Below, in pieces: positions 12,245 to 16,632 of a stretch of 51,687 nt of DNA. The notes under the pieces are model-generated. The model worked only from the letters and a program-made list of their open reading frames with translations. It searched no databases and was not told where the DNA came from. The DNA is from Candidatus Pelagibacterales bacterium. GTDB taxonomy: Bacteria > Pseudomonadota > Alphaproteobacteria > Pelagibacterales > Pelagibacteraceae. The stretch is taken from NCBI GenBank assembly GCA_965235125.1, contig CBDDXH010000001.1, positions 1 to 51,687 of the forward strand, written 5' to 3'. The number at the start of each line of letters is the position of its first letter. Positions within the stretch are counted from its first letter, which is position 1. The position numbers and the translations under genes are program-made.

Positions 12245-12272
12245 TAGACACTTACTATATTTGTTATATATC
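12245..12272 (+). promoter_or_regulatory. Putative sigma70-type promoter of the TSCPD-domain gene
   Basis: TAGACA (12245-12250), 16-bp spacer, TATATC (12267-12272), about 30 nt upstream of ATG 12301. Confidence 0.4.
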
Positions 12273-12300
12273 TTCAATTGTTGATTCCTAAAATATTTAA

Positions 12301-13131
12301 ATGAAAAAATTTATAGTTGAGACTTATTATACTTGTACGTTTAAAACAGTTCATACACTTGATGAACTAAATGAAGTTGAATTATCTAAAATTGACAGTC
12401 GAAATGATGGTGAGGTTGAAGTTATTGATGTAAGACTTAATAATAGAAAAACAAAGAAAATTGGAGACAAGTCTAAACCAGTTAATAAAAAAAATGAAGA
12501 TTTTGCTGGCATAGACCAGATAGTTGGAAAAGAGGTTCTTCAAAAGAATTTTGCCCACACATCTGCAATTAAAGAAGAAAGTTTAAAAGTTAAAAGCCAA
12601 ATAAGTTCAAGATTTAGAATGCCTGATCGAAGAAAAGGCTACATTCAAAAAGCTTCAATTGGTCAACAGAAAATTTATCTTCATACAGGTGAATATGACG
12701 ATGGTAAGATTGGTGAAATCTTTATTGATACAAATAAAGAAGGAGAGTTAGTCAAAGCATTAATGAATAACTTTGCTATCGCCATTTCTATAGGACTACA
12801 ATACGGGGTACCTCTAGATGAATTTGTTGATGCTTTTGTAGATACAAAATTTGAGCCATCTGGAAAAATAGAAGGAAACGATAGAATATTAAGTGCTACT
12901 TCTATTTTAGATTATGTGTTTAGAGAACTCGCTATATCCTACCTTGGAAGAGAAGAGATGGCACACACTCCATCTATAGCAAGCACTAAGGAACTAAACA
13001 ATGAGTCTAGTGATGATAAATTTTTAAAAATAGTAAAAAATATTACTTCCAAAGGATTTGTTCGAAGTAATTATGAAGATAAACTTATAGATCTAAGCGA
13101 TATAAGAATTAATTTGAAAACTAAGAAGTAA
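12301..13131 (+). CDS. Stand-alone protein homologous to the C-terminal (TSCPD-type) domain of class II ribonucleotide reductase NrdJ
   Basis: [36 protein letters not shown]...[24 protein letters not shown]...FEP.G...[17 protein letters not shown] matches the alphaproteobacterial NrdJ C-terminal region. No catalytic RNR core is present. Confidence 0.85.
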
Positions 13132-14911
13132 TCTTTTTATCTACTTTAATATTTAATTCTTTTAATTGTTTTTCTTCCACTTCAGAAGGTGCACCCATTA
13201 AAAGATCCTGGGCATTTTGATTTAATGGAAAAAGAGTAACCTCTCTAATATTTTTTTCACCTGCTAACAACATGATAATTCTATCAATACCGGGAGCTAT
13301 CCCGCCGTGTGGAGGCGCACCATAACTTAATGCATTAATCATTCCACTAAATTTTTCATCTACTTGTTTTTTATTATAACCTGCAATTGCAAATAATTTA
13401 TACATCAAATCAGGTATATGGTTTCTAATAGCTCCTGATGATAGCTCAATGCCGTTACAGACAATATCATACTGGTAGGCTTTAATTTCTAAAGGTTTAT
13501 CAAAATTTATTTTGTGAATATCGCCCTGGGGCATAGAAAAAGGATTATGACTAAATTGAATTTTTTTACTTACTTCATCTAACTCGAACATTGGGTAATC
13601 AACTACCCAGCAAAATGCGAATTTATTTTCATCGATAAGATTTAAATCTTTAGCTATTTTTTCTCTTGCCTGAGAGATAATTTTTTCTACATCATTTATT
13701 TTGCCACAAGCAAAAAATATACTATCCCCTACTTCTGCAGAAGTAACTTTCATTATTTCTTTTAAAGCTTCATGTTTAAAAAATTTTCCAATAGGGCCTT
13801 TTGATGAAATTTCTTTATCTTTTTCAAAAGTGAAATAAGCAAGACCTGATGCGCCCTGTTCTTTGGCCCATTTATCAATATTGTCAAAAAAACTTCTTGG
13901 TTTGTCTTTTGTATTTTTGGTAACAATGCATCTAACTTTTGAACCAGACATTACTAATTTTTTAAAAATATCAAAAGTTACATCATCTCTGGTAAAAATA
14001 TTTGTTAAATCGTGAATTAATAAAGGGTTTCTTAGATCCGGTTTATCAGATCCGTACTTAAGCATTGCCTCCTCGTAAGAGATTCTTGGAAATTTTTTAT
14101 ACATTAATTCTTTTGTAGAAAAATTTTTAAATAAATTGATCATTAATTTTTCTACAACTTCAAATACATCTTCTTGTTCAACAAAAGACATCTCTATATC
14201 TAATTGATAAAATTCACCCGGGCTACGATCAGCTCGAGCATCTTCGTCTCTAAAACATGGGGCAATTTGAAAATATTTATCAAATCCTGAAACCATAATT
14301 AATTGTTTAAACTGTTGTGGCGCTTGAGGAAGTGCATAAAATTTTCCAGGATTTAATCTGCTTGGAACTAAAAAGTCTCTAGCTCCCTCTGGGCTCGAAG
14401 ATGTTAAAATTGGGGTTTGAAATTCTAAAAAACCAAGTTTTGACATTTCACTTCTTATAAATGAGATTACATTTGACCTTAAAACAATGTTTTTATGCAT
14501 TTGATTTCTTCTAAGGTCTAAAAATCTATATTTTAATCTAATGTCTTCTGGATATTCTTGCTCACCAAAAACAGGCATCGGCAGATCTTTTGCTTCCGAT
14601 AAAATTTCAATATCGTCAATATGAATTTCAATTTTCCCTGTTTTTAAATCTTTATTTTCTGTTCCTGATTCTCTTTTTTTAACTTTTCCATAAACTTTTA
14701 TTACAGACTCTGATCTAAGGCTTTCTAAAATTTTAAAATATTTATTTTTATTTTCAATTACACATTGAGTGACACCAAAATGATCTCGTAAGTCTATAAA
14801 AAGTAAATTACCATGATCTCTTTTTCTATGAAGCCATCCAGATAAATATACTTTTTTATCAGAGTCACTTTCGTTTAACTCTGAACAATTATGAGATCTG
14901 TATTTATTCAT
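13121..14911 (-). CDS. aspS: Aspartate--tRNA ligase
   Basis: [63 protein letters not shown]. Confidence 0.97.
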
Positions 14912-15561: not shown

Positions 15562-16632
15562 TTAATTAATGGTTGCTATCCAAATGTTATCTTCAATTTT
15601 AATATTAATTTTATTTTCTAAAAGTTTATCTTTTAGTTTGTTTATTTTTCCATTGTATTTTAATCTTACTTTTGTATTTTCATTTGTCATTTCTAATACA
15701 GAATAATCTTCAACTAAATCTATCAAATTCAAAATATCACGAAGCTTTAAATAATCGTTTGCTTTTTTTATATCTAAAGATAAATCTAAAAAAGAAGGTG
15801 TACTAACATCAATTAAGTTTTGATATTTCCAAATTTGATTTATTTCTTCTTTTGCAGTTATAATTGCTTGTTCATAAGTTTTAATTTCATTTGAAGAATA
15901 TTTCTTTAAATTAAAATTTTTATCTATTTCTTTTCCTGCAATTGAGGTCTTCAGATATGCTCTAAAATCATTTTCGGTGAAATAAAAGACTAAAAAAGCG
16001 TTGTTCTTAATGTCACTTAGTGATGTTAATTTTTTTATATCGATTAACTCTAAATTTTCTTTATTCAAGGCGATATATTGAAGATCTTCGATATTTTCTA
16101 AAGCTAAATTATAATTAATCAGTATATTTTTATTATTTGTAATTTCTTTATTTTCATTTTTGAGCCAATTATTATAAAAAAAATTTTCTGAAAACATAAA
16201 AATATTTTTATCTTTAATAAATACCGGAAACAAGGTTAGCGAAATACTTGAAACGTCTGAATAAGAAACTCCATTTATAGCAAGAAAATTATTTATTTTT
16301 TTTGGATCAAACTTAATATTTATAGTTAAAGTATTTTCTTTTTTTTCATTTTTTTCATTTTTAATAATTTGATATGCAAATATTAGATCTTCGATAATAT
16401 TAATTTTAGTTTTATATAAATTTTCGGCATCTTCCTTAAGTAGTGTTTTATCAGCAAAAGATATAAATGCCGTCTTAAATGCTAATTGAATTAATTTTTT
16501 TTTATCTAAATCATTATTAATTTTACCACTTACCTCAATATTATTCACATCATAAATAAAATTATTTGATAAAACTGTTTGAGTTTTAGAGAGAAAGACT
16601 ATTATACAAACTATAAAAAAAAATTTATTCAT
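15562..16632 (-). CDS. Exported protein, probably DUF2066 family
   Basis: Signal peptide, 356 aa, YDVNNIEV...AFKTAF pattern; occupies the usual slot between purM and hda. Confidence 0.55.
   Translation of the reverse strand: MNKFFFIVCIIVFLSKTQTVLSNNFIYDVNNIEVSGKINNDLDKKKLIQLAFKTAFISFADKTLLKEDAENLYKTKINIIEDLIFAYQIIKNEKNEKKENTLTINIKFDPKKINNFLAINGVSYSDVSSISLTLFPVFIKDKNIFMFSENFFYNNWLKNENKEITNNKNILINYNLALENIEDLQYIALNKENLELIDIKKLTSLSDIKNNAFLVFYFTENDFRAYLKTSIAGKEIDKNFNLKKYSSNEIKTYEQAIITAKEEINQIWKYQNLIDVSTPSFLDLSLDIKKANDYLKLRDILNLIDLVEDYSVLEMTNENTKVRLKYNGKINKLKDKLLENKINIKIEDNIWIATIN

What the first reader, a model, noticed from the sequence alone, without database searches (positions are those of the whole stretch)
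12301..13131. Orphan NrdJ C-terminal domain fused to an unrecognised N-terminal module: an RNR remnant that may have a new job
Seen: an intact 276-aa ORF whose residues ~105-230 match the C-terminal TSCPD-type region of alphaproteobacterial B12-dependent NrdJ. It has no catalytic barrel and only one Cys (C12), so the terminal CxxC...CxxC segment is gone. The N-terminal ~50 aa ([20 protein letters not shown]...[13 protein letters not shown]) look structured and unfamiliar, followed by a charged linker. It has its own promoter-like element. Known: full-length nrdJ commonly lies beside NDUFA12/DUF2155 in alphaproteobacteria, and split NrdJb subunits rely on C-terminal cysteines to re-reduce the enzyme. 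Inference: a streamlined genome has kept this domain after losing the enzyme core and the redox cysteines, which suggests an undescribed non-redox function.
Basis: partly seen in the sequence, partly recalled or inferred. Interest (0 to 1): 0.75.

Follow-up and report, generated by a model that had tools for sequence, protein, structure and literature searches.

The report
Kept tail of lost B12 reductase
SAR11 bacteria have lost the working part of their vitamin-B12 enzyme for making DNA building blocks but keep its tail domain as a strongly conserved small protein, as several other bacterial lineages likely did independently, so this tail likely has an old second job, such as holding other proteins together.

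Summary
Observation confirmed. The 276-aa ORF is a core gene of Pelagibacteraceae (SAR11): 259 of 273 genomes carry the domain. It sits where the sister family has a 1,200-aa NrdJ. No NrdJ N-terminus was found in 0/273 family genomes, and class I NrdAB does the reduction, so it is no split enzyme. Folded parts are under purifying selection (dN/dS about 0.07-0.19), so it is no decaying relic. The same domain survives, 62-80% identical to intact NrdJ, in other alphaproteobacterial lineages whose catalytic barrel is deleted or dead (21-33%), all without the two redox cysteines. Its job is therefore likely old and non-redox rather than newly invented. The promoter lacks the NrdR-type box and mostly carries a CcrM-type GANTC site (30 of 36 against 7% background). 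Best reading: a protein-binding scaffold or adaptor. The 54-aa head has no known relative. Ten paper searches listed no description. This scan reported the SAR11 remnant three times before on other genomes, and dead NrdJ forms elsewhere.

The parts
12301..13131 (+). 276-aa NrdJ-remnant gene at the ancestral nrdJ position (between NDUFA12 and aspS)
12301..12462 (+). Family-specific head, aa 1-54; predicted long strand-helix-strand; invariant C12, H18
   Evidence: no relative found outside the family
12463..12609 (+). Variable charged linker, aa 55-103
   Evidence: 18% mean pairwise identity, dN/dS about 0.9; pLDDT below 50
12610..12978 (+). TSCPD / IscU-like domain, aa 104-226, cysteine-free
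   Evidence: PF12637; 88% mean pairwise identity, dN/dS about 0.07; confident model; weak SufE/IscU-type fold matches, Z 4.8
13015..13128 (+). Conserved tail, aa 239-276: helix, KGFVR segment inherited from NrdJ, terminal KLIDLSDIR motif (candidate short binding motif)
   Evidence: 73% mean pairwise identity, dN/dS about 0.13
12245..12274 (+). Sigma-70-like promoter TAGACA-N18-TATCTT; no NrdR-type box
12283..12287 (.). GANTC site (CcrM-type methylation target) 18 nt before the start codon
   Evidence: within 60 nt upstream in 30 of 36 orthologues against 64 of 865 genes of this genome
11847..12218 (-). NDUFA12 gene, divergent neighbour (context marker, also beside intact nrdJ)
13121..14911 (-). 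aspS, convergent neighbour overlapping the last 11 nt (context marker)

Best explanation
The gene is the in-place remnant of a vitamin-B12 ribonucleotide reductase gene that lacks the catalytic barrel and all tail cysteines, and its cysteine-free IscU-like domain likely works as a protein-binding scaffold or adaptor, a second job that intact alphaproteobacterial NrdJ likely already had. Shown: same locus as the sister family's intact nrdJ; class I NrdAB present; no NrdJ barrel found in the family; strong purifying selection on head, core and tail; the core is as conserved in barrel-dead lineages as in intact enzymes. Inferred: the core self-associates and binds a conserved cellular partner. 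Inferred: the new strand-helix-strand head replaces the oligomer contacts lost with the barrel. Inferred: the tail, at the end of a floppy linker, tethers a second protein; the best named candidate is the ClpX N-domain (about 0.2 on its own, untested). Inferred: expression moved from dNTP feedback (NrdR) to CcrM-methylation, cell-cycle-type control. I put about 0.93 on 'selected, non-redox remnant' and about 0.5 on the scaffold/adaptor mechanism.
For: Locus: in 4 of 4 sister-family loci that were read, a 1194-1203-aa NrdJ lies between NDUFA12 and aspS; all 43 family loci read have the 268-289-aa form beside NDUFA12. Distribution: TSCPD in 259/273 family and 26/27 sister genomes; NrdJ N-terminal profile 0/273 against 26/27; NrdB 27/36 own genus against 0/24 sister family. 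Own genome: one barrel gene, class I NrdA over its cut-off, next to NrdB. Selection. Repeated retention: family f9, 36/42 genomes, about 275-290 aa, unrelated helical head, four zinc-position Cys kept and both redox-position Cys absent in 20 of 21 genomes read, no NrdJ N-terminus in 0/42; family f25, 60/61, mostly 430-710-aa frames, no finger-loop motif in the 15 non-intact copies read, 3 of them cut by contig ends; four 869-1067-aa barrel-dead proteins. Identity to intact sister NrdJ: barrel 64-68% intact against 21-33% dead; core 79-82% intact, 75-80% dead, 76% f9, 69% this protein, 62-63% f25. Regulation: NrdR-type box (consensus recalled) 4/4 before sister nrdJ, 7/7 before nrdA, 0/36 before the remnant; GANTC 30/36 against 64/865; NrdR, a CcrM-like methylase and GcrA are encoded. 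Literature: this C-terminal region drives tetramer/hexamer formation in S. nassauensis NrdJd (PMC5704485); its IscU-like part has no reported role and was proposed to dimerise (PMC9669993).
Against: No partner is shown. The domain is not generally needed: 100 of 301 alphaproteobacteria gave no match, and Caulobacter's 907-codon nrdJ is non-essential in a Tn-seq screen (PMC3202797 supplement; its catalytic state was not checked here). Independence of the retentions rests on different heads, tails and taxa, not on a tree. dS is near saturation (pS 0.57-0.64), so the dN/dS values are rough. Family f9 shows no clear GANTC or NrdR pattern in the 12 promoters printed (GANTC not counted there), so the regulatory switch may be SAR11-only. 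Promoter counts are across kin and overstate. The tail-motif likeness is from memory, and the tails of the lineages differ.
Confidence: 0.5

Rival explanations
1. It is an accessory or regulatory subunit of the class I NrdAB enzyme. The class I alpha subunit here has no ATP-cone, and the remnant would bind it or cross-link it into higher oligomers, as the domain does in class II enzymes.
For: The only ATP-cone found in the genome is NrdR. Every remnant-bearing genome checked has NrdB (G336, G493, G352, G536, G580, G456, G466, G061, G062). The domain promotes oligomers in PMC5704485. An unchecked scan note reports an ATP-cone+TSCPD remnant leading a class I operon in CPR bacteria (e1-2752569).
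Against: 78 of 301 alphaproteobacteria have NrdB and no match to the domain (the profile may miss divergent copies). Co-occurrence is forced, since any lineage that loses NrdJ activity needs another reductase. The remnant is unlinked to nrdAB and lacks the NrdR-type box that nrdA keeps (0/36 against 7/7).
Confidence: 0.18
2. The core binds a small ligand or nucleic acid (for example a dNTP, a metal or sulfur carrier, or DNA/RNA) through its basic R-x3-P-x-R-R-x-G-Y motif and acts as a sensor or carrier rather than as a scaffold.
For: Basic N-terminal motif nearly invariant even in 102-109-aa stand-alone copies. SufE/IscU-type fold. Removing this region lowered effector affinity in S. nassauensis NrdJd (PMC5704485). 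Invariant C12 and H18 in the head.
Against: No cysteine in the core, so no IscU-type cluster ligands. Fold matches are weak (best Z 5.1, IscU Z 4.8, rmsd 3.8, 90 aligned). The effector sites of class II enzymes lie in the barrel (PMC4520616).
Confidence: 0.17
3. A SAR11-specific new function: the head domain is the working part and the NrdJ-derived domain was co-opted after the fusion.
For: Head conserved family-wide (63% mean identity, dN/dS about 0.19) and not found outside the family. SAR11-specific changes in the core (for example D-T-N-K-E-G-E-L-V for D-M-H-K-E-G-A-x-x). New promoter logic.
Against: The core is more conserved than the head and is kept without this head in f9, f25 and the barrel-dead forms.
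Confidence: 0.09
4. A decoy against phages: the remnant binds and poisons phage class II reductases or phage stand-alone TSCPD proteins.
For: 284 viral stretches encode a relative of the domain; stand-alone phage TSCPD folds of 122-184 aa.
Against: Very slow evolution (88% mean identity across seven genera), a fixed housekeeping locus and single copy are unlike defence genes.
Confidence: 0.04
5. An ordinary NrdJb subunit of a split class II reductase, or a decaying relic.
For: Databases name orthologues 'ribonucleoside-diphosphate reductase alpha chain' or 'ribonucleotide reductase'. The own genome is 84% complete.
Against: NrdJ N-terminus 0/273 family genomes, many of them closed. No tail cysteines, which NrdJb needs (PMC4520616). 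Intact frames of about 260-300 aa in all listed family rows (first 150 of 286 matches) and dN/dS 0.07-0.19.
Confidence: 0.02

Closest known systems
[quoted passage not shown] 2017, PMC5704485)
   Same: aa 103-255 are 57% identical to residues 955-1113 of the sister family's intact NrdJ; same chromosomal slot.
   Different: No barrel, no finger loop, none of the six tail cysteines; new 54-aa head; no NrdR-type box.
IscU-like domain of class II RNR C-termini (Burnim et al. 2022, PMC9669993) = Pfam TSCPD PF12637
   Same: Above the Pfam cut-off; predicted three-strand meander plus helices with weak IscU/SufE-type matches.
   Different: Stands alone in a genome with no class II barrel; the paper (passages read) treats the domain only within RNRs or NrdJb and reports no role.
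NrdJb of the split class II RNR of Pseudomonas aeruginosa (Crona et al. 2015, PMC4520616)
   Same: A separate small protein built on the same C-terminal domain.
   Different: NrdJb has the redox cysteines and a partner NrdJa in the same operon; this protein has neither.
Barrel-dead or truncated NrdJ of other Alphaproteobacteria (families f9, f25 and loci L242-L244, L248 here; likely Caulobacter CCNA_01966)
   Same: Core domain kept at 62-80% identity to intact NrdJ, redox cysteines lost, class I NrdB present; f9 and most f25 copies also face NDUFA12.
   Different: Different heads (helical in f9, decayed barrel in the others); f9 and L242-L244 keep four zinc-position cysteines.
ClpXP adaptors SspB and RcdA (passages of PMC8138137 and 10.1101/2020.06.12.148478)
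   Same: Layout only: folded domain, floppy linker, short conserved C-terminal motif. The tails here (KLIDLSDIR) and in f25 (such as RRRALRVVGK) resemble SspB's ClpX-binding tails as recalled.
   Different: No homology to SspB or RcdA; binding to ClpX, dimer state and cargo were not tested.

Membership tests
Split class II RNR, NrdJb | Cognate NrdJa barrel in the genome | tested here: not met
   Only a class I barrel in G000; NrdJ N-terminal profile 0/273 family genomes, positive control 26/27 sister genomes
Split class II RNR, NrdJb | C-terminal redox cysteines and zinc finger | tested here: not met
   Single Cys at 12 in the orthologues printed (part of that output was cut); C12 invariant and no other invariant Cys in 44 sequences
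Split class II RNR, NrdJb | IscU-like/TSCPD domain | tested here: met
Intact alphaproteobacterial NrdJ (PRK07562) | Catalytic barrel with N-P-C-x-E finger loop; whole-protein score over 1737 bits | tested here: not met
   223 bits, C-terminal part only; sister NrdJ scores 2101
TSCPD domain proteins (PF12637) | Score above the gathering cut-off | tested here: met
   47.7 against 22.8 bits; Atlas neighbours all TSCPD, 0.94-0.95
IscU/SufU iron-sulfur scaffolds | SufE/IscU-type fold | tested here: inconclusive
   IscU 1q48 Z 4.8, rmsd 3.8, 90 aligned, tied with xanthine dehydrogenase and lipoate ligase C-terminal domains
IscU/SufU iron-sulfur scaffolds | Cluster-ligating cysteines in the domain | tested here: not met
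   No Cys in aa 104-276
ClpXP adaptor (SspB/RcdA type) | ClpX with N-terminal zinc-binding domain in the same cell | tested here: met
   G000 and 5 of 5 other genomes tried; near-universal, so weak
ClpXP adaptor (SspB/RcdA type) | C-terminal tether motif on a flexible linker | tested here: inconclusive
   Conserved tail after a variable linker; 15 of 15 f25 tails end in [LF][RKQ][VL][VI]; likeness to SspB tails is recalled, source paper not held
ClpXP adaptor (SspB/RcdA type) | Tail binds the ClpX N-domain; folded domain binds cargo and speeds its degradation | not tested

The most novel reading that the evidence does not exclude
Alphaproteobacterial NrdJ carries a hidden, moonlighting ClpXP-adaptor module (IscU-like cargo-binding domain plus a ClpX tether). 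The module is valuable enough to be kept in several lineages after the enzyme died, and in SAR11, where no SspB was found (0 of 6 genomes), it has become a stand-alone, CcrM-timed core adaptor.
Probability: 0.17. Interest if true: 0.85.

Novelty: new variant of a known kind. Interest (0 to 1): 0.6.

Why it matters
SAR11 genomes keep almost nothing dispensable, yet this gene is core and its domain is 88% identical across the family. Its survival there, and beside dead barrels in other lineages, is a natural experiment showing that the IscU-like domain of class II reductases does something apart from catalysis and electron relay; the published survey says no role has been reported (PMC9669993). 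The stand-alone SAR11 and f9 proteins make that question directly testable. There is also a practical point: orthologues are filed as 'ribonucleoside-diphosphate reductase alpha chain' or 'ribonucleotide reductase', and their only NCBIfam likeness is to B12-dependent NrdJ, so read- or annotation-based surveys could wrongly count SAR11 as a B12-dependent-reductase user.

Tried and rejected
Origin of the head: no credible Pfam or PHROG hit (best PHROG E 0.009 over 23 members, about chance). The 150 best of 477 profile hits in 1.8 billion proteins match the head at or near their own N-terminus and look like family members cut by contig ends; I read only 3 of them, and the 327 weaker hits were not visible. 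None in viral contigs, phage records or 16 sister genomes at E<=0.001. Profile comparison with the NrdJ N-terminus and with the f9 head both gave 0.3%. The Atlas gave unnamed 57-58-aa clusters at 0.89-0.91, a lead only. The head was not folded alone, so 'no known fold' is not claimed. Full-length model was poor (pLDDT 50.7) and its fold searches meaningless. Foldseek on the core found nothing in PDB at E<=0.001; no solved relative by sequence. Complex prediction (ClpX N-domain dimer with the tail) was not available: queue full, nothing folded; this says nothing about binding. NrdA binding and self-association were never submitted. The tree to test independent origins was not made (script machine lost). 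Expression: contigs of 8 lake or freshwater RNA runs (7 studies) cover the ORF at 95-100% identity, with listed pieces starting at 12295-12398 and none listed across 12245-12294. The runs were chosen for holding this stretch, no DNA run was laid, and contigs give no strand or level, so transcription is suggested, not shown. No Rfam match in the window or in 6 loci. A tail pattern drawn from this protein occurs at the C-terminus of only itself among 869 ORFs: circular, not used. Papers: searches listed no paper on this SAR11 gene (listings and abstract starts only; the three hits were not read; most subscription papers and bioRxiv supplements, where SAR11 proteomes may list it, were not searchable).

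Full report
Observation. The window encodes an intact 276-aa ORF at 12301-13131 (+) with one cysteine, C12, between a divergent NDUFA12 gene and a convergent aspS. Pfam finds TSCPD at aa 116-211. NCBIfam places aa 58-263 on positions 920-1131 of the 1222-position alphaproteobacterial NrdJ model, far below the whole-protein cut-off. Against an intact NrdJ of the sister family, aa 103-255 match 955-1113 at 57%.

What organism, and how widespread. Record titles and NCBI names of close relatives are Pelagibacteraceae and Candidatus Pelagibacter, so family f1 is SAR11. The domain occurs once in 259 of 273 family genomes over seven genera and in 26 of 27 genomes of the sister family f2. The 150 listed matches were all family rows, with open frames of about 260-300 aa. 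In the 61-genome draw, the own genus has the short form (29 of 36) and f2 has 1196-1218-aa frames (23 of 24; one is cut to 141 aa). In 4 of 4 f2 loci read, the long gene lies directly after NDUFA12, and where the contig reaches, before aspS. All 43 family loci read have the short gene beside NDUFA12. The remnant and f2 NrdJ share the letters Y-I-Q, L-H-T and G-N-x-R-I where most other NrdJ and f9 have Y-T-Q, L-R-T and other residues, which fits descent in place.

Not a split enzyme. The own genome (84% complete) has one barrel gene, a 649-aa class I NrdA over its NCBIfam cut-off, with an N-L-C-S-E loop and C-x2-C end, next to NrdB on contig C20. A six-frame search with intact NrdJ finds only the remnant and that NrdA. 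A profile of the NrdJ N-terminus rings in 0 of 273 family genomes and 26 of 27 sister genomes. NrdB is found in 27 of 36 genomes of the own genus and 0 of 24 of f2. In P. aeruginosa the role of NrdJb is thiol exchange through its C-terminal cysteines (PMC4520616, passages); those are absent here.

Not decaying. In 36 orthologues, mean pairwise identity is 63% (head 1-54), 18% (linker), 88% (core 104-226), 18% (second linker) and 73% (tail 239-276). Counting-method dN/dS over 18 disjoint pairs is 0.19, 0.93, 0.07, 0.74 and 0.13. Synonymous sites are near saturation, so these are rough, and the linkers align poorly. Ten allelic differences in RNA contigs, which I translated by hand, fall the same way: four replacements in the first linker, five silent changes and one R-to-K change in the rest. 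RNA-library contigs cover the ORF in 8 runs, which suggests but does not show transcription.

The domain outlives the enzyme repeatedly. Among 301 alphaproteobacteria, 201 match the domain, mostly inside 1200-1350-aa frames (150 places listed). Family f9, of another order, has a stand-alone protein of about 275-290 aa in 36 of 42 genomes, again facing NDUFA12, with an unrelated, poorly conserved helical head. It has class I-type barrels of about 620-665 aa and no NrdJ N-terminus. In 20 of 21 f9 genomes read, four cysteines stand exactly at the zinc positions (+0, +3, +17, +20), while the two positions modelled as the redox pair in PMC5704485 (parts 1-3 of 6 read) are not cysteine. Family f25 (Acetobacteraceae-like by my recall of the sequences, not by any search) has the domain in 60 of 61 genomes, mostly behind a shrunken barrel. 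None of the 15 non-intact copies read has the finger-loop motif (3 are cut by contig ends), and all 15 end in a basic stretch plus [LF][RKQ][VL][VI]. Four more proteins of 869-1067 aa lack the finger loop; three keep only the four zinc cysteines. Against f2 NrdJ the barrel falls from 64-68% (3 intact) to 21-33% (4 dead), while the core stays at 75-80% against 79-82%. The constraint on the core therefore does not depend on catalysis or on the redox cysteines. That these are independent events is inferred from different heads, tails and taxa; the tree was not made.

Results against a universal or essential role. 100 of 301 genomes gave no match. Crossing typed handle lists, after dropping six NrdB rows below the cut-off, gives 76 with both, 125 domain only, 78 NrdB only and 22 neither; the profile can miss divergent copies. 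Caulobacter CCNA_01966, 907 codons and so about 300 shorter than intact NrdJ, is non-essential with 184 insertions while nrdA and nrdB are essential (PMC3202797, supplement rows only). I did not check its active site; earlier scan notes call it dead.

Structure. With a 60-sequence alignment the core folds confidently (mean pLDDT 80, 98 residues at 90 or more; three-strand meander, then helices; tail beyond about aa 228 low). The best solved matches are weak and tied: xanthine dehydrogenase Z 5.1, IscU Z 4.8 (rmsd 3.8, 90 aligned), lipoate ligase C-terminal domains. This agrees with the 'IscU-like' label of PMC9669993 (passages), which reports no role and suggests dimerisation. Phage proteins of 122-184 aa share the fold. 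The head is predicted as two long strands around a short helix. Long unpaired strands suggest an oligomer, which is inference.

Regulation. A palindromic NrdR-type box (consensus recalled; perfect core, at most 4 mismatches) lies before f2 nrdJ in 4 of 4 and before nrdA in 7 of 7 loci, but before the remnant in 0 of 36, although NrdR is encoded. GANTC lies within 60 nt upstream in 30 of 36 orthologues, against 64 of 865 genes of this genome, or 22 of 378 with a free upstream region. A CcrM-like methylase (named by my reading of the sequence) and GcrA are present. The orthologues are kin, so this is one or a few events; it suggests a move from dNTP feedback to cell-cycle-type control.

Mechanism. 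Shown: a selected, cysteine-free, barrel-free descendant of nrdJ. Most likely (about 0.5), the IscU-like domain is a protein-binding scaffold or adaptor whose job predates the loss of the enzyme; the head would supply oligomer contacts and the tail a tether. The tails of the SAR11 and f25 proteins, and the L-x-V-[IV]-x-G-G stretch at the same place in many intact NrdJ, resemble the ClpX-binding tails of SspB as I recall them; the source paper was not held, and reviews confirm only that SspB and RcdA tether through such tails (passages). No SspB was found in 6 of 6 family genomes. No binding prediction could be run, so the ClpX idea is a lead at about 0.2. Rivals: accessory of class I NrdAB (0.18), ligand sensor or carrier (0.17), SAR11-only function of the head (0.09), phage decoy (0.04), split enzyme or relic (0.02).

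Novelty. Ten full-text searches listed no paper on this gene or on dead alphaproteobacterial NrdJ; coverage of subscription journals is poor. Other papers seen: PMC6538847 and PMC5869019, one passage each, both listing CCNA_01966 as NrdJ. This scan has reported the SAR11 remnant on three other genomes and dead NrdJ in Caulobacter-type and CPR bacteria; I reached the reading before opening those notes. Class: new variant of a known kind; interest 0.6.

Noticed in passing
L179:6132-6962 (G336) and L180, L195-L214: Family f9 carries its own stand-alone NrdJ remnant beside NDUFA12, with a helical head and a zinc finger stripped of just the two redox cysteines; 36 of 42 genomes.
   Followed up: yes
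L191, L228-L241: Family f25 keeps a shrunken, finger-loop-less NrdJ whose extreme C-terminus is a conserved P-x-L-P-L-x-L-P ... R-R-R-x-L-R-V-V motif; G716 has both an intact and a shrunken copy.
   Followed up: partly
L242:2009-4618, L243:2014-4752, L244:991-4038, L248:1641-4844: 869-1067-aa NrdJ descendants without the finger-loop cysteine but with a near-intact TSCPD domain.
   Followed up: partly
L192:1450-1758, L193:1444-1773, L194:1498-1827 (G395): Three 102-109-aa stand-alone, divergent TSCPD proteins in one genome besides its intact NrdJ, possibly prophage-borne; similar short folds in phages.
   Followed up: no
G000 C20:11484-14419 (L001, L003): Class I nrdAB with a conserved NrdR-type box; NrdA has no ATP-cone and a 40-residue N-terminal extension conserved in the genus.
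   Followed up: partly
L215, L216 (G637, G639): Two f9 genomes hold a second, longer class Ia nrdAB of another type, perhaps phage-derived or binned in.
   Followed up: no
G000 whole genome: No SspB found in this genome or in 5 near-complete family genomes, although ClpX keeps its zinc-binding domain; GANTC is depleted genome-wide (1788 seen, 2767 expected).
   Followed up: partly
L025:4473-4778 and L026-L028: The sister family has a 300-nt leader before nrdJ with two NrdR-like boxes and a conserved element near the start; no Rfam match in L025 and L026.
   Followed up: partly
window 15562-16632: 356-aa exported-looking protein between purM and hda with no Pfam match, kept in the same slot in relatives at about 33% identity.
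   Followed up: no
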